Below are positions 1 to 9,490 of a stretch of DNA of 36,619 nucleotides, piece by piece (position 1 is the first letter of the stretch; every line of letters starts with the position of its first letter). The notes under the pieces are model-generated. The model saw nothing but the letters and a program-made list of their open reading frames with translations, had not been told where the DNA came from and searched no databases. A program made the position numbers and the translations under genes. The stretch comes from a virus (lineage: Duplodnaviria > Caudoviricetes): positions 1-36,619 of IMG/VR virus record IMGVR_UViG_3300011116_000913. One strand, written 5' to 3'.

Positions 1-1654
1 GCCCTTGGTTACCTTGTGGTCCTTGATTACCTTGTGGTCCTTGGTTGCCCTGCGGGCCTTGTCTTCCCTGTGGTCCTTGATTGCCTTGTGCTCCTGTTGT
101 ACCCTGTAAACCTGTAGGACCTTGGTTACCTTGCGGTCCGGTTGGTCCCTGATTCCCCTGTGATCCGGTAGTACCTTGTAATCCAGTTGGTCCTTGATTG
201 CCTTGTGCTCCTGTTGTACCCTGTAAACCTGTAGGACCTTGGTTACCTTGTGGTCCGGTTGGTCCCTGATTCCCCTGTGATCCGGTAGTACCTTGTAATC
301 CAGTTGGTCCTTGATTGCCTTGTGCTCCTGTTGTACCCTGTAAACCTGTAGGACCTTGGTTACCTTGAGGTCCTTGGGGACCGGGAATATACAGACTTCC
401 GCTGACTATATGACCTCCTTTAGCTACAACTACGTATCCTGTTGATGGGCTAGTAAAAGATAATTTTACTCTATTATTGTCTAGTAATTTAACTTGATTA
501 GGTACAAAGTAAAAATCGGAAGAATCATAAGCAGAAACAACAACACTTTTTGAATTGAAATTATGTGTTACTGTTATGGAAGATGTAGCAGAGAAAGATG
601 CAGATACTGTGGATACCTCGCTAACTTCTCTTATAGGGCCTTGAATACCTTGACTGCCTTGAGCACCTACTGTACCTTGAACTCCTTGAAAACCTTGAAA
701 TCCTTGTGGACCTGCAATGTACAAACTTCCACTAACAATATGACCTCCTTTTGCTACTACTGCGTGTCCTGTGGATGGATTTGAAAAAGTTAGTTTGACT
801 TTATTATTATCTACTAATTTTATTGTTTCAGGAACAAAATAAAAATCATCCGAATCATAGGCAGATATAACTACATTTTTAGAATTAAAATTATGTGTTA
901 TAGTTATAGAAGATGTAGATGAAAAAGAGGCTGTTACTGTATTTACTTCTGCTACTGTTATATTTGTTAGACTACTACCATCTCCAGAAAAAGATCCTGT
1001 GTAATTAAATATACTTCCCGATATAATATCTCCTAATGACCTAGCTATAGATTTATTGTTTACTCCATAAAAAACTTGACCATTTAATAAATTAGGAGTT
1101 GCATTTGCTCTACCTGCACCTAATACCACACCACCTCCGTTAGTAGGATGTACCTTAGTTACTATACCTAAATTTTGTATTAGGTTTGAACCTGTAGGCG
1201 GTACATTAGTATATCCTCCATTTACTCCTACGTATATAATTTCACCATTCTCAAAAGCTGATGTATCAACTCCACTTATTAAACCTGATATTATACCTAG
1301 ACCTTCAGCTCCTGCTGCTAATGTTTGAGCTAGTATAAAAGTTGCGGGCATCGAAGAGGCTAGGGATGCACTTGCAGGTATTACACCTACTATGTTTCCC
1401 ATGGTTCCAGAGCCTGTTGCATGTACAGGAGTTCCTTTGTATAGCGTATGTCCAGAAACATTCTTTACATTCTCAGTTACAGTAGATACCCCACTAAATG
1501 TTAAATTTCCTAGACCGTCTGTTTGTATGAATTGACCTGATAATCCATCCGATGTAGGGTAATGTATTCCACTTGCTGTAAATGATGTGGATACATTTAA
1601 TCTATTTAGTTCCGCGTTAGATCCGCTAACTAATACTTTTTTCCAGTTTGGCAT
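1..1654 (-). CDS. Tail fibre-like / collagen-repeat virion protein (3' end runs off the window)
   Basis: Not in the ORF track because it has no stop in the window. ATG at 1654 gives MPNWKKVLVSGSNAEL..., open to the window edge. It contains GSFSGDGSSLTN, two copies of a ~80-aa TITHNFNSK...YDS..FYFVP..DNN..KL.F..PSTG..VVAKGG domain and G-X-Q collagen repeats. Confidence 0.85.
   Translation of the reverse strand, partial: MPNWKKVLVSGSNAELNRLNVSTSFTASGIHYPTSDGLSGQFIQTDGLGNLTFSGVSTVTENVKNVSGHTLYKGTPVHATGSGTMGNIVGVIPASASLASSMPATFILAQTLAAGAEGLGIISGLISGVDTSAFENGEIIYVGVNGGYTNVPPTGSNLIQNLGIVTKVHPTNGGGVVLGAGRANATPNLLNGQVFYGVNNKSIARSLGDIISGSIFNYTGSFSGDGSSLTNITVAEVNTVTASFSSTSSITITHNFNSKNVVISAYDSDDFYFVPETIKLVDNNKVKLTFSNPSTGHAVVAKGGHIVSGSLYIAGPQGFQGFQGVQGTVGAQGSQGIQGPIREVSEVSTVSASFSATSSITVTHNFNSKSVVVSAYDSSDFYFVPNQVKLLDNNRVKLSFTSPSTGYVVVAKGGHIVSGSLYIPGPQGPQGNQGPTGLQGTTGAQGNQGPTGLQGTTGSQGNQGPTGPQGNQGPTGLQGTTGAQGNQGPTGLQGTTGSQGNQGPTGPQGNQGPTGLQGTTGAQGNQGPQGRQGPQGNQGPQGNQGPQGNQG
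71..367 (-). repeat. 117-bp (39-aa) tandem repeat, ~2.5 copies, collagen-coding
   Basis: tggtccttgattgccttgtgctcctgttgtaccctgtaaacctgtagg recurs at 71, 188 and 305. Confidence 0.9.
385..955 (-). repeat. Intragenic domain duplication, 330-bp period (~385-625 and ~715-955)
   Basis: tgacctcctt at 411 and 741; aaattatgtgtta near 559 and 888; the two translated domains are highly similar. Confidence 0.85.
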
Positions 1655-1665
1655 TTATATACATT

Positions 1666-1723
1666 TTATTACGGTTGGTAACTTCTTTTTTAGAAGCCCA
1701 CTTCCCCATAGGGCCAATAATAA
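1666..1723 (-). ncRNA. Candidate structured cis-regulatory RNA (three-way junction) in the fibre-gene leader
   Basis: Minus strand reads TTATTA-TTGG CCC-TATG-GGG AAGTGGG CTTCT-AAAAA-AGAAG TTA CCAA-CCG-TAATAA, i.e. nested complementary segments forming a GC island in an AT-rich spacer. Confidence 0.5.
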
Positions 1724-1744
1724 ATTTTACTATACTAAATAACT

Positions 1745-1960
1745 TTATTTTTTATTTAACAAAGTATAATTTTTTTGCAGTTTCATAATTAAATGATATA
1801 TAAACTCAATTTGTTTAATTTGCATGTTAGATTCTCCTAGAACCTGTAAAATAAATTCTATTTCTTTTGCATTTAAATCAAATAAAATATCATTTTTATC
1901 ACTTTTATTTTCAATCATAAAGTCATTTTCTTTTCTAGAAACTTTTGATACAATAGCCAT
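1745..1960 (-). CDS. Small hypothetical protein (helical)
   Basis: Track ORF 1745..2011. ATG at 1960 (MAIVSKV...) is preferred because it avoids overlap with the upstream gene. Confidence 0.65.
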   Translation of the reverse strand: MAIVSKVSRKENDFMIENKSDKNDILFDLNAKEIEFILQVLGESNMQIKQIEFIYHLIMKLQKNYTLLNKK

Positions 1961-1979
1961 AATATAATTTTTAAAAATT

Positions 1980-2918
1980 TTATACATATATGTAAATTTC
2001 ACCTGAATCAATCCTAATATTTCCTGGGTGGTCTGCTTTGTTAGTCGCTGCGTTTGCTTCTGTACCTTCGTAAACTCCTGCTACATAATAAGAAGGCGTA
2101 ACATTACCAGTGGTATTAGCTCCAAGATTATTTACTACAGATAATCTACCGTCATTTGTATTGTAGCTACCGTCCCAAACTAATGCTGAACCACTTTGAG
2201 CTACTCCTGTACTTCCTCCAAATATAATACCTGAATCACCTACAGATGCAGAACCGGATTTTAATAATATAAAAGCATCTTCTACTGCTAAATTAGAAAC
2301 ATTAAGGTAAGTTAAATCTCCGTTTACTACTAAATCTCCGCCTATAGTTAAATCATTAGTAATAGAAACATCATTCGGAAGACCTATAGTAACGGTTCCA
2401 TTTGTTCTACTTACTTCTACTTCATTTAAAGTTCCTGAAACAATTAATACAGCACCAGTAGAAGCATCTTTTAAAGATATAACTCCAGAAGCAGCGGAAA
2501 AATCTCCACTATCAAAGGTGGCTAAACCTTTATTTGTACCATTAGCTTGCGCATCTGCTACACTAATAGTTATAGTATTATTCGTTACTGCTGTCGTTAT
2601 AGGCGTACTTCCTCCTACTACGGATAGTTTATCTACTTTTAAATCTAATACATCATTTCCTGTAGACCCGCTTATTTTTAATGAAGTTACTAGACCGGTT
2701 AATCCAGAGCCATTTCCTACAAAAGATCCTGAAAATATAGAACCTGATACTATACTATTACCTAAATTTAAAGTACTGCTTATGTAAGTAAGACCACTAT
2801 CTTCAATAGAACCTCCTGCTCTAGAGACTAATATATTATTTGGTGATAAATTTGAAGCAGTTACTGCCGTAACATGAGCGCTAGATCCACTGACTAATAT
2901 TTTTTTCCAGGTTGCCAT
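1980..2918 (-). CDS. Tail fibre-like structural protein
   Basis: 312 aa, Ser/Gly/Thr/Val-rich. The N-terminus MATWKKILVSGS is paralogous to the 1654 gene. It has a fibre-type LTIGGDLVVNGDLTYLNVSNLAVEDAFILL segment. Confidence 0.75.
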   Translation of the reverse strand: MATWKKILVSGSSAHVTAVTASNLSPNNILVSRAGGSIEDSGLTYISSTLNLGNSIVSGSIFSGSFVGNGSGLTGLVTSLKISGSTGNDVLDLKVDKLSVVGGSTPITTAVTNNTITISVADAQANGTNKGLATFDSGDFSAASGVISLKDASTGAVLIVSGTLNEVEVSRTNGTVTIGLPNDVSITNDLTIGGDLVVNGDLTYLNVSNLAVEDAFILLKSGSASVGDSGIIFGGSTGVAQSGSALVWDGSYNTNDGRLSVVNNLGANTTGNVTPSYYVAGVYEGTEANAATNKADHPGNIRIDSGEIYIYV

Positions 2919-2967
2919 TTTTTTTTATTTAATTGTTATATAAATATATATTAGTTGTTTTCTGAAA

Positions 2968-3321
2968 TCAATCAAGTCCAATCCAATAATTTGATTCACT
3001 ATATATTATCCCACCAGATACAGGGTTAGGTTTAGAAGAAAAAGAACCTAATGAAATAACTCCTTTATTATTCACTTTCATAGAATCAAAAGAACCAGAT
3101 TTTATAATAAAGAAATCAAATGAACCTGTATCAATTTTTCTAACTATTAAAGATCCTGTTATAACTGCTTTGCCGATATAAGGAAAAGTCAATCTACTTA
3201 TTTCGTCATTAAAATTTACTATAGATGATGTAGGTATATTAGAAAGTCGAGAACCATCTCCATCAAAAGAACCAGAAAAATAACCAGACCCAGAAAATAT
3301 AGTAGGAAATAATATCCTCAT
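2968..3321 (-). CDS. Small fibre-associated structural protein
   Basis: 117 aa. The N-terminal PT..SGSGY.SGSFDGDGSRL.NIP.SS is shared with the 4321 gene. Confidence 0.7.
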   Translation of the reverse strand: MRILFPTIFSGSGYFSGSFDGDGSRLSNIPTSSIVNFNDEISRLTFPYIGKAVITGSLIVRKIDTGSFDFFIIKSGSFDSMKVNNKGVISLGSFSSKPNPVSGGIIYSESNYWIGLD

Positions 3322-3373
3322 TTTTATTTTTTTTATTTATTATTGCATGTTCTCATCTACATAAATATTATTT

Positions 3374-4321
3374 TTACACCCAAGAAGTTCCAGTATATAC
3401 TTCTAATTTAGCTAATGTTTTGTTATACCTAAAAGAACCTGTAGGAGGATTATTAGGTCTTTCGGAAGTAGTGCCTACAGGAATGACAATAGAAGATGAT
3501 GAGTTTATGTCTATTATAGCTCTTGGATTTTTTGTATTATATCCTACATATCCGCTACTTGAAACAAAAAAACTACTACTATTATTTGATTTGACTACAT
3601 TGAGATTACCTTTTATAATAACGCTTCCGGTATAAGGCGAACTTAAACTACCTTTTTCTCCTTTCTCTCCTTTTACTCCACTTGATATACTTATTGATCC
3701 GGTAAATCCTATCCCGAAGTCAACTTGAACAGTGTCCTTGTCTATTACATTAAAAGACTTAGGAAGTACTTCTTCGCCATTTGAATCATAAATATTAAAA
3801 ACAGGATATTGGATATCTAAATTATGAGATACAGTAACAAGGCTACCTTGAAAAGAAGAGCTGTAAATAGATTCTCCAAAATTTCCTTTGTTGCCTTTAG
3901 TTCCTTTAGTTCCCTTGTCCCCTTTAAAACCTTTCAATCCTTTCTCCCCACCAGCAATACTTAATGAACCAGTAAAAGGTATGCCAAATTCTATTTCAAC
4001 TGTATTATTATTAATTACTTCAAAACTCTTTGGTACAACCTCCTCCCCTGCTAAATCGTATATTGCATAAACAGGAAAATAAATATCTAAATTATGGTTT
4101 ACCGTTACTGTTTGACCTTGAATAGAAGATGTATAAACAGCACTTACAGTTTGACCCGGCTGTCCTTTCTGTCCTTTGGAACCACCTCCTGCATTTAAAG
4201 CATAAGAAGCAGTTACGGCATAAGAAGATGATGGTATGTTATATAACCTAGACCCGTCTCCATCGAAAGACCCGGAGTAGTATCCTGATCCAGAAATAAT
4301 CGTAGGCCTGTAAATTAGCAT
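3374..4321 (-). CDS. Fibre protein with Lys-rich collagen segments and a duplicated domain
   Basis: 315 aa with G-X-K triplets and two TV.HNLDI..PV..IYD..GEEV.PKSF.VI domains (270-bp period, atatctaaattatg at 3813 and 4083). The C-terminal IPVGTTSERP...G.FRYN...LEVY.G..W is a typical phage fibre motif. Confidence 0.8.
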   Translation of the reverse strand: MLIYRPTIISGSGYYSGSFDGDGSRLYNIPSSSYAVTASYALNAGGGSKGQKGQPGQTVSAVYTSSIQGQTVTVNHNLDIYFPVYAIYDLAGEEVVPKSFEVINNNTVEIEFGIPFTGSLSIAGGEKGLKGFKGDKGTKGTKGNKGNFGESIYSSSFQGSLVTVSHNLDIQYPVFNIYDSNGEEVLPKSFNVIDKDTVQVDFGIGFTGSISISSGVKGEKGEKGSLSSPYTGSVIIKGNLNVVKSNNSSSFFVSSSGYVGYNTKNPRAIIDINSSSSIVIPVGTTSERPNNPPTGSFRYNKTLAKLEVYTGTSWV

Positions 4322-4360
4322 AATTAACCTTTATTATAAATATTGCATAATGTACTAATT

Positions 4361-8809: not shown

Positions 8810-9490
8810 ATGAAAAGATTAAAGAAAAAAATGTACTTCGATGATACAGTACAAAATTCAATAGTAGAATATAATAAACTGACATCACAAAAAGAAAAAA
8901 ATACATTATACGAATTAAATATATATCCTGCATTTTGTAAACTCGCTGAGAATTTAATAAACATGGGTAAATATATGTACATTGATTTACCGTATGAAGA
9001 TTTACATTGTCAAGTAGTTTCTATGCTGACTATAAAAATGCACAGATATAATGAAGAACGAGCTAAAGCATATTCTTTTTTTACCCGGATTGCTATAAAT
9101 TATCTCATTATGGAAAATAAGAAAGGGTATAAGAATAGAGTAGGAGAAGCAGAGTTATGGGAAATAGATGAAGAGAGAGATATAATAAATGAAGTAGTCA
9201 CTAAACATTATAAGGATTCTTTAGATGACTTTATTAATTTATGGACGGGAGAATTATATGAAAAATTAAGATGCACATTTAAAAATAATTTAGATAAAGC
9301 GATAGCAGATTCCATTATCGACATTTTTAAGCATCGAAAATCTTTATATGCATTTAATAAGAAAGCATTATATGTATTAATAAGAGAAAGATCCAATATT
9401 CCCATGACAAATACAAACAGAATCACAAAGATAGTAAAAATATTTAAAGATGATTTTGATTTGCAATTTAATAAATACATGAAGAAATAA
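8810..9490 (+). CDS. Phage RNA polymerase sigma factor, T4 gp55-like (late transcription)
   Basis: AFCKLAENLI...YEDL...MHRYNEERAKAYSFFTRIAINYLI resembles sigma region 2 of gp55-type factors (F..IAE.L...FDPEK..PFAYFT.I). Confidence 0.65.
   Translation: MKRLKKKMYFDDTVQNSIVEYNKLTSQKEKNTLYELNIYPAFCKLAENLINMGKYMYIDLPYEDLHCQVVSMLTIKMHRYNEERAKAYSFFTRIAINYLIMENKKGYKNRVGEAELWEIDEERDIINEVVTKHYKDSLDDFINLWTGELYEKLRCTFKNNLDKAIADSIIDIFKHRKSLYAFNKKALYVLIRERSNIPMTNTNRITKIVKIFKDDFDLQFNKYMKK

What the first reader, a model, noticed from the sequence alone, without database searches (positions are those of the whole stretch)
1666..1741. Candidate three-way-junction RNA in the 5' leader of a fibre gene
Seen on the minus strand: P1 UUAUUA-UUGG / CCAA-(CCG bulge)-UAAUAA, P2 CCC-UAUG-GGG, junction AAGUGGG, P3 CUUCU-AAAAA-AGAAG, junction UUA. 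It starts ~10 nt after a TATTTAGT promoter-like motif (1741-1734) and ends 11 nt before the ATG. GGCCC could alternatively pair with GGGCU, giving a second fold. It has no terminator U-tract and I do not recognise it as a known riboswitch or ribozyme. Inference: a phage cis-regulatory RNA (ligand- or protein-binding) controlling fibre translation.
Basis: partly seen in the sequence, partly recalled or inferred. Interest (0 to 1): 0.75.

Follow-up and report, generated by a model that had tools for sequence, protein, structure and literature searches.

The report
Phage fibre-gene RNA off-switch
A 58-base three-armed RNA structure, kept by compensating mutations in front of one fibre-type gene in hundreds of aquatic Flavobacterium-type phages and absent from the Rfam catalogue, likely switches off translation of that gene when a still unidentified partner, most likely a phage protein, holds it folded over the start region.

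Summary
Covariation over about 300 distinct leaders gives P1a (A/U-rich), a 1-nt bulge, P1b GG/CC, P2, junction AAG, P3a UGG/CCA (UAG/CUA in 69 of 300), a 2-nt bulge, P3b and junction A. The proposed UUGG/CCAA helix breaks. The RNA is single-copy and starts at an inferred late transcription start after TATTTAT. It leads only the MPxWKK fibre-like gene of large Bacteroidota myoviruses, including cultured Flavobacterium phage immuto_2-6A. Rfam has no match. Three subfamilies add different platforms, each predicted to bury the start codon when the junction is folded: a P3 loop GGCAU, a P2 loop UGGCR, and a switch strand in a long spacer. In this window only P1a overlaps positions -18 to -13. Best reading: a translational OFF element held folded by a protein in feedback (0.45); small-molecule riboswitch 0.28. 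The P1b-A-P3a-bulge module resembles c-di-GMP-II, but it fails that membership test, and 0 of 81 sampled Bacteroidia encode GGDEF. Transcription, repression and ligand are untested. The scan already noted this RNA on at least eight other genomes.

The parts
1735..1741 (-). Degenerate late-promoter-like heptamer TATTTAG (family consensus TATTTAT); inferred transcription start about 5 nt downstream, near 1730
   Evidence: TATTTAT upstream in 176 of 217 leaders; 14 of 16 plus-strand copies in 30 kb of the immuto structural region are intergenic; +5 is a purine in 152 of 163 and P1a starts at least 5 nt after the heptamer in 157 of 163. Function inferred.
1717..1722 (-). P1a 5' strand UAUUAU (pairs with 1672-1667)
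   Evidence: Covariation A-U/G-C 57/37 and U-A/U-G 45/50
1716..1716 (-). Single bulged base (U, A or C)
   Evidence: U148, A35, C12 of 195 with no partner change
1714..1715 (-). P1b 5' strand GG (pairs with CC 1674-1673)
   Evidence: GG/CC 287, GA/UC 10, GA/CC 3 of 300; immuto has GA/UC
1704..1713 (-). P2 hairpin CCC-UAUG-GGG; length variable; loop UGGCR in a 34-member subfamily
   Evidence: 98.6% of cells paired; subfamily
1701..1703 (-). Junction J2/3 AAG
   Evidence: AAG 296, GAG 4 of 300
1698..1700 (-). P3a 5' strand UGG (pairs with CCA 1678-1676)
   Evidence: UGG/CCA 230, UAG/CUA 69, UGG/CUA 1 of 300; 75/27/0 mixed in the protein-anchored sample
1681..1697 (-). P3b hairpin G-CUUCU-AAAAA-AGAAG-U (G.U then C-G, then variable); loop GGCAU(A) in a 53-54-member subfamily
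1679..1680 (-). 2-nt bulge (UA here; AA in 184 of 300)
1673..1678 (-). CCA (P3a 3') - A (J3/1, 1675) - CC (P1b 3')
1667..1672 (-). P1a 3' strand GUAAUA, at -18 to -13 from the AUG
   Evidence: P1a reaches -13 or closer in 130 of 212 short-spacer leaders
2..1654 (-). Controlled gene: MPNWKK fibre-like protein with collagen repeats, running off the contig end
   Evidence: PHROG tail-fibre hits E 4e-53, Pfam Collagen; only about the first 20 aa are conserved across the family
1745..1960 (-). Upstream small helical-hairpin protein (71 aa); candidate binder, unproven
   Evidence: AlphaFold helices 31-43 and 48-70; no informative fold, family or Atlas match
1980..2918 (-). Paralogous MATWKK structural gene with the same N-terminal motif, its own TATTTAT (2946) and no RNA motif

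Best explanation
This is a conserved three-way-junction RNA at the front of the message for one fibre-like virion protein, and it likely works as a translational off-switch: a partner, most likely a phage late protein acting in feedback (unassembled fibre through its conserved MPxWKK N-terminus, or the small hairpin protein next door), would bind the invariant junction, hold the weak A/U-rich closing helix shut and so keep the ribosome off the start region. Steps: (1) fold and strand, shown by covariation and G.U wobbles; (2) transcript starting at the helix from a TATTTAT late promoter, inferred from spacing; (3) folded state covers the initiation region, predicted: by P1a at -18..-13 here, and by loop:AUGCC pairing or a switch strand in three subfamilies; (4) a bound partner tips the balance, inferred from marginal P1 stability and an invariant core; (5) the partner is a protein, inferred by elimination and untested.
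For: Fold: 94.0% of 1,889 cells paired and 13 of 19 pairs with two-sided change, against 31-50% paired in slid controls. Joint changes recur on a neighbour-gene tree: 14 for P3a and 7 for P1b among 127 loci (noisy tree). U-A/U.G interchange 95/91 fixes RNA and strand. Gene link: 321 of 324 MPxW starts have the motif. Six loci with the hairpin genes but no MPxW gene after them lack it. One copy per genome in 5 IMG/VR records and immuto. Folded = OFF: in four long-spacer leaders, forcing the junction raises the cost of opening -15..+15 by 3.1-6.0 kcal/mol, reached by 0, 0, 1 and 0 of 50 spacer shuffles. 54 leaders have a P3 loop that can pair 5-6 bp with (U)AUGCC in 53 cases, with spacer median 21 against 15. 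34 have a P2 loop UGGYR, stems of ten different sequences and codon 2 always CCR. Duplexes are -5.7 to -6.6 kcal/mol. P1 is marginal, median probability 0.23. A-12, A-13 and an unstructured start promote initiation in Flavobacterium (PMC6847099, passages). For a phage protein: no host copy was found, and the putative small-molecule pocket residues vary.
Against: No RNA, reporter or binding data. In the 210 short-spacer leaders the computed effect is small: median +0.96 kcal/mol for -15..+9 (126 above +0.5, 27 below -0.5) and none for -10..+9. P1a stops short of -13 in 82 of 212. The window copy has no loop complementary to the start. The -15..+15 window was chosen after seeing the folds; -15..+9 gives only +1.1 to +2.2. 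The long-spacer leaders are one clade, and each loop subfamily may be one origin; no two-sided change links loop and start codon (CCR enrichment p=0.05). The conserved N-terminus is shared with a paralog that lacks the RNA. The hairpin proteins are only about 25-37% identical to each other while the RNA core is nearly invariant, which fits an unchanging ligand better than a drifting protein.
Confidence: 0.45

Rival explanations
1. A true riboswitch: the junction binds a host small molecule (a nucleotide second messenger such as c-di-AMP, or another metabolite) and turns fibre translation off according to host state.
For: One invariant core with three different attached platforms is the usual riboswitch layout. 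The module GG/CC, one purine, three pairs, AA bulge, R-Y, C-G matches the P1/P4 geometry of 14 fetched c-di-GMP-II-like RNAs, where the bulged adenines and the next base contact the ligand (PMC13715770, Results). Diadenylate cyclase is found in 62 of 81 Bacteroidia.
Against: The A69- and A70-equivalent bases are both A in only 184 of 300, and this copy has UA. The G73 equivalent is A in 300 of 300 and can simply pair with U. There is no kink-turn or pseudoknot arm. GGDEF is over cut-off in 0 of 81 Bacteroidia. No bacterial copy was found in the genomes searched. The model R1 does not hit c-di-GMP-II RNAs.
Confidence: 0.28
2. A ligand-free structure that sets a fixed low translation rate or shields the 5' end, matching fibre output to its few sites on the virion.
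For: The helix starts at the inferred transcript end; other late leaders of immuto are mostly short and A-rich; the loop:start pairings need no ligand.
Against: A plain hairpin would do, yet junction bases are nearly invariant while stems vary freely. The long-spacer clade has two exclusive folds.
Confidence: 0.14
3. An ON element that recruits the ribosome or a host or phage translation factor (for example phage bS21-containing 30S) to boost fibre synthesis.
For: 3 of 5 motif-bearing genomes encode bS21 about 10 kb away. Three unrelated endonuclease genes have inserted directly behind the motif, as expected of a good expression site.
Against: immuto and G005 have the motif without bS21. Every added platform predicts occlusion. 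SD-like sequence tracks the genome, not the motif.
Confidence: 0.07
4. A self-cleaving or processing RNA, a separately acting small RNA, or a DNA recombination site for swapping fibre modules.
For: Compact invariant core; the gene bodies behind it are exchanged freely (92-916 aa; collagen, S74 chaperone, tail-tip or no known domain).
Against: No terminator after it, tight spacing to the AUG, strand-specific G.U pairs, and no ribozyme family hit.
Confidence: 0.06

Closest known systems
c-di-GMP-II riboswitch aptamer (Rfam RF01786; PDB 3Q3Z as described in PMC13715770)
   Same: P1-top GG/CC, one purine linker, U-GG opposite CC-R, 2-nt AA bulge, then R-Y and C-G pairs, with nearly the same letters.
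   Different: There that helix is a pseudoknot positioned by a kink-turn arm; here it is a simple hairpin with P2 stacked on P1 and AAG after it. The ligand-reading G is an A here, the bulged adenines vary, and the sampled host class lacks GGDEF. No Rfam hit.
Glutamine-I riboswitch (glnA, Rfam RF01739)
   Same: Three-way junction of similar size; the UAG subtype shares GGAAGUAGGC with the Rfam consensus.
   Different: In glnA these bases are an unpaired junction facing GAAG. Here GG closes P2 and UAG pairs with CUA, swapping to UGG/CCA in 230 of 300; the GAAG partner is absent.
Protein-bound translational operators of phages (P22 scaffolding protein, T4 gp32, MS2 coat; recalled, not from a call)
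   Same: A leader structure next to the start of a single gene whose product level must be balanced.
   Different: No binding protein is shown; this is a three-way junction with several interchangeable platforms, ahead of a fibre gene.
GP20-type and other candidate cis-regulatory RNAs of phage structural genes (Fremin et al., PMC10690425)
   Same: Covarying RNA within 25 nt of a phage structural gene, from the same IMG/VR source.
   Different: Different gene. The paper's alignment files could not be searched, so this motif may be one of its 8,495 unnamed candidates.

Membership tests
c-di-GMP-II riboswitch (RF01786) | Scores at or above the Rfam gathering threshold | tested here: not met
   No hit in the window, immuto region or 10 diverse loci at E<=10; true members score 62-76 bits
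c-di-GMP-II riboswitch (RF01786) | P2/kink-turn/P3 arm with P4 as a pseudoknot | tested here: not met
   Covariation gives nested hairpins; P2 is 8-10 nt in 202 of 300
c-di-GMP-II riboswitch (RF01786) | Ligand-contact bases A69, A70, G73 | tested here: not met
   Equivalents: A in 263, A in 213, and A (never G) in 300 of 300; window has U, A, A
c-di-GMP-II riboswitch (RF01786) | P1-top and P4 helix geometry with a 2-nt bulge | tested here: met
c-di-GMP-II riboswitch (RF01786) | Binds c-di-GMP | not testable with these tools
   GGDEF over cut-off in 0 of 81 Bacteroidia sampled makes it unlikely
Glutamine-I riboswitch (RF01739) | Unpaired AGUA facing GAA(G) at the junction, and Rfam score | tested here: not met
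   URG pairs with CYA; no GAAG strand; real glnA RNAs score 61-64 bits, this motif none
Translational riboswitch or protein operator (functional class) | Conserved structured 5' leader tied to one gene, overlapping or able to cover the initiation region | tested here: met
   (coverage is predicted, not measured)
Translational riboswitch or protein operator (functional class) | Ligand- or protein-dependent change in expression | not testable with these tools
   needs probing and reporters
T4-type early-transcript hairpin disrupted by a late start inside the stem (recalled) | Late start lies within the 5' arm of the stem | tested here: not met
   P1a begins at or after the inferred start in 157 of 163
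Rho-independent terminator or attenuator | GC stem followed by a U tract | tested here: not met
   none at 1500-4360 on the minus strand

The most novel reading that the evidence does not exclude
A phage-borne riboswitch class with no host counterpart: a compact, rearranged c-di-GMP-II-like pocket retuned (G73 to A) to a nucleotide signal that Bacteroidia do make, such as c-di-AMP. It would let a lytic phage decide from the host's physiological state how much of an interchangeable adhesion fibre to build into its progeny.
Probability: 0.12. Interest if true: 0.92.

Novelty: new variant of a known kind. Interest (0 to 1): 0.63.

Why it matters
Few structured regulatory RNAs are known to be native to lytic phages. 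This one is very common in aquatic viromes: about 720 IMG/VR stretches carry the linked gene start and about 2,900 metagenome stretches match the RNA pattern. It guards the most variable, probably host-contacting, virion protein. It has a cultured phage-host pair (immuto_2-6A on Flavobacterium LMO8), a well-determined fold and natural variants that define the switch, so the ligand question can be tested directly. A protein partner would give a new RNA-protein feedback loop for virion stoichiometry; a small molecule would give a phage-specific riboswitch class.

Tried and rejected
Rfam: nothing at gathering in the window or the immuto region; only unrelated chance hits at E<=10. RNA-level constraint on codon 2 across the whole family: CCA is 164 of 217, but the paralog without the motif likewise has GCA in 56 of 61, so this is a general A-ending bias. 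T4-type early-only hairpin: rejected. SD as part of the motif: rejected, since it agrees between paralog and motif gene in 66 of 71 loci. Second copies: the weak G001 hit lies inside a coding sequence; the G008 hit at 15 bits and two Bacteroidia hits at 23-24 bits lack P3 or junction bases. GTDB pattern scan: 6 matches, of which 1 is a true copy ahead of an MPSWKK gene on a short MAG contig and 5 look like chance. Relaxed patterns gave many chance hits: 33 of 120 (which include real glnA riboswitches and a few true motifs the gene filter missed) and 100 of 113. A pattern scan for c-di-GMP-II in viral contigs gave 3 matches that Rfam does not recognise. Upstream hairpin protein: best Z 5.3, a common helical hairpin; no Pfam, PHROG or Atlas identity. 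No RNA holder was listed for the window, so expression is open. Microcystis phage Mel-JY01 has a homologous structural gene but no motif. Literature searches found no description of this RNA. In Fremin et al., four supplementary tables had no match, but the two zip files and three large files with the alignments could not be read. PMC10085705 and PMC3764141 (passages) had nothing relevant.

Full report
Setting. The window is a 36.6-kb fragment of a large myovirus: baseplate wedge, primase, SbcC-like and fibre genes. The element lies on the minus strand between a 71-aa ORF (1960-1745) and a collagen-repeat fibre-like gene starting MPNWKK at 1654. The closest annotated match is Flavobacterium phage vB_FspM_immuto_2-6A (Immutovirus, Baltic Sea, host Flavobacterium sp. 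LMO8), where the same leader precedes a 'putative tail fiber-like protein' between the head and tail-sheath genes. Three of five motif-bearing genomes encode ribosomal protein bS21, like the Bacteroidetes phages of Chen et al. (PMC9723584, abstract and passages; it does not mention promoters or non-coding RNA). The window's own host is inferred from these relatives.

The observation. The single sequence is no more stable than shuffles (z -0.13 and -0.57), and Rfam has no match. Comparative evidence settles it. A scan with the 5' half only gave 118 loci plus the window: 100 had the 3' half and an M..W[KR][KR] gene behind, and 19 had neither. A scan anchored only on the protein start (about 720 stretches estimated, 119 fetched) showed the motif, with variants, throughout. 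Over all loci then held, 321 of 324 MPxW starts had it. The 3 misses were two upstream paralogs and one gene pushed away by an endonuclease insertion. In metagenome contigs about 2,900 stretches match; of 120 fetched, 113 lead an xW[KR][KR] gene, 4 are cut by contig ends, 1 leads an endonuclease and 2 look like chance.

The fold. But the second U varies (U148, A35, C12 of 195) with no partner change. Instead UGG/CCA swaps to UAG/CUA (230 and 69 of 300, 1 wobble; 75, 27 and no mixed pair in the protein-anchored sample) and GG/CC swaps to GA/UC (287, 10, 3 broken). On 101 diverse leaders the revised structure has 94.0% of cells paired against 31-50% for slid controls. The revised fold is the MFE of the window copy (-12.4 against -8.3 kcal/mol). 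In window coordinates: P1a 1722-1717 with 1672-1667; bulge 1716; P1b 1715-1714 with 1674-1673; P2 1713-1704; AAG 1703-1701; P3a 1700-1698 with 1678-1676; bulge 1680-1679; P3b 1697-1681; A1675. U-A/U.G interchange (95/91) shows an RNA on the gene's strand. The U-A and outer G-C pairs of P3a and one pair of P1b never covary, so they are inferred from their neighbours.

Context. A covariance model finds one copy in the window, in immuto and in each of five IMG/VR records. Among 80 loci anchored on the upstream MAxWKK paralog, 48 had a strong hit. Six in which the small hairpin genes are followed by another gene had none (the five contigs searched whole are only 4-27% complete). So the RNA follows the MPxWKK gene. 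That gene is conserved for about 20 residues, shared with the motif-less paralog, and then carries unrelated bodies. No bacterial copy was found: one true GTDB match sits ahead of an MPSWKK gene on a short MAG contig, and 121 Bacteroidia gave two partial weak hits. TATTTAT lies upstream in 176 of 217 leaders and marks structural genes in immuto (14 of 16 copies intergenic). The +5 base is a purine in 152 of 163 and P1a starts at or beyond it in 157 of 163, so a late transcript most likely begins at the helix. The window's copy is degenerate (TATTTAG) and may also be read through from the promoter at 2946, with no terminator between.

How it likely works. P1 is marginal in calculation (median pair probability 0.23; P2 0.85, P3a 0.66), as expected of an arm closed by a partner. 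In this window P1a covers -18 to -13; it reaches -13 or closer in 130 of 212 leaders. A-12, A-13 and low structure at -20..+20 promote initiation in F. johnsoniae (PMC6847099, abstract and passages). The computed effect for short leaders is modest: median +0.96 kcal/mol for -15..+9 and none for -10..+9.

Three subfamilies are more telling. (a) 54 of 296 leaders have a P3 loop GGCAU(A) that can pair 5-6 bp with (U)AUGCC in 53 cases; their spacer is longer (median 21 against 15) and U at -1 is enriched (46 of 53 against 145 of 209, p=0.01, sequences not independent). (b) 34 have a long P2 whose stem takes ten different sequences while the loop stays UGGYR, complementary to UGCCR with wobble-only variation; codon 2 is CCR in 34 of 34. 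(c) A clade with 117-126-nt spacers (five distinct sequences) has a distal strand that pairs either with the motif's 5' arm or with the first codons. With the junction forced, opening -15..+15 costs 3.1-6.0 kcal/mol more in the four tested, a value reached by 0, 0, 1 and 0 of 50 spacer shuffles; for -15..+9 the gain is 1.1-2.2. All three point to folded = OFF, but each may be a single origin, none shows a two-sided change with the start codon, and all are predictions. Two HNH genes inserted behind GGCAU-loop leaders keep AUGCCA, while a NUMOD1/GIY-YIG-like gene behind a loop-less leader does not. This fits the model but is also explained by recombination inside the first codons.

The partner. 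Fetched members do share the GG/CC, purine, three-pair, AA-bulge, R-Y, C-G module. But in that riboswitch A69, A70 and G73 contact the ligand (PMC13715770, Results section). Here the equivalents are A in 263, A in 213 and never G in 300, the window has UA in the bulge, and the kink-turn/pseudoknot arm is missing. GGDEF domains were over cut-off in 0 of 81 Bacteroidia (8 of 14 controls ring), whereas diadenylate cyclase was found in 62 of 81. It is therefore not a member, though a related pocket for another nucleotide stays open. The glnA likeness is limited to ten letters in one subtype with different pairing. With no host copy, a single target gene and variable bulge bases, feedback by a phage protein is slightly the better bet (0.45), on precedents recalled from P22, T4 and MS2. 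Against it, the small neighbouring proteins drift far more than the RNA core, their fold is uninformative, and the candidate N-terminal peptide is shared with an unregulated paralog.

Novelty and verdict. It is not in Rfam 15 and was not found in nine literature searches. The alignment files of Fremin et al. (PMC10690425; passages and four searchable supplements seen) could not be read, so it may be an unnamed candidate there. This scan noted the same RNA on at least eight other genomes; those notes are not independent support. Added here from my own calls: the inferred start boundary, the P2-loop and long-spacer platforms, the endonuclease insertions and the GGDEF/DAC host check. Verdict: a real, undescribed cis-regulatory RNA class of Bacteroidota myoviruses, most likely a translational OFF switch, with ligand and expression untested. 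Interest 0.63.

Noticed in passing
L314 457-978 (-), L656 672-1250 (+), L549 1778-2500 (-), L624 contig end: Free-standing homing-endonuclease-type genes (two HNH, one NUMOD1/GIY-YIG-like) inserted between the RNA and the fibre gene; in L314 and L549 the displaced fibre gene has its own SD-like site, and in L314 its start overlaps the endonuclease stop.
   Followed up: partly
window 1741, 2946, 3367, 4342, 5849 (-); 11897, 22536, 33606 (+): TATTTAT(A) behaves as the late promoter of this phage family; it is the reverse complement of the T4 late promoter as recalled.
   Followed up: partly
L238 22098-22160 (immuto, record about 145027-145089): A second GC-richer 52-nt leader after TATTTAT, ahead of a 44-codon ORF, followed by about 150 non-coding bases; possible further structured RNA or intron remnant, with no Rfam hit at gathering.
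   Followed up: no
window 1745-1960 (-) and homologues: One or two paralogous 50-100-aa helical-hairpin proteins (LxxxExxFLL...F.G..E..Y....KL) sit after the MAxWKK gene in nearly all loci; no family, possible fibre chaperone or adaptor.
   Followed up: partly
L260 979-1030, L287 978-1030: Genuine glutamine-I (glnA) riboswitches on IMG/VR viral contigs (61-64 bits).
   Followed up: no
L660 584-793; L619 168-288; L690 232-352 (-): Two further independent spacer expansions (128 and 57 nt) with strands complementary to the core or hairpins over an SD and the start codon.
   Followed up: partly
G001, G003, G004: bS21 gene about 10 kb from the motif; 33 of 34 P2-loop leaders carry SD-like GGAG/AGGA, unusual for Bacteroidia hosts.
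   Followed up: partly
L729, L731-L735: c-di-GMP-II-like RNAs in Clostridia with A-U in place of G-C below the AA bulge, three of the six under the Rfam cut-off; possible variant class.
   Followed up: no
window 4390-4366 (-): Intrinsic terminator just upstream of the fibre-gene cluster and its promoter at 4342.
   Followed up: no
window 8810-9490 (+): 226-aa ORF without a PHROG match among the late genes; possible phage sigma-like factor for TATTTAT (impression only).
   Followed up: no
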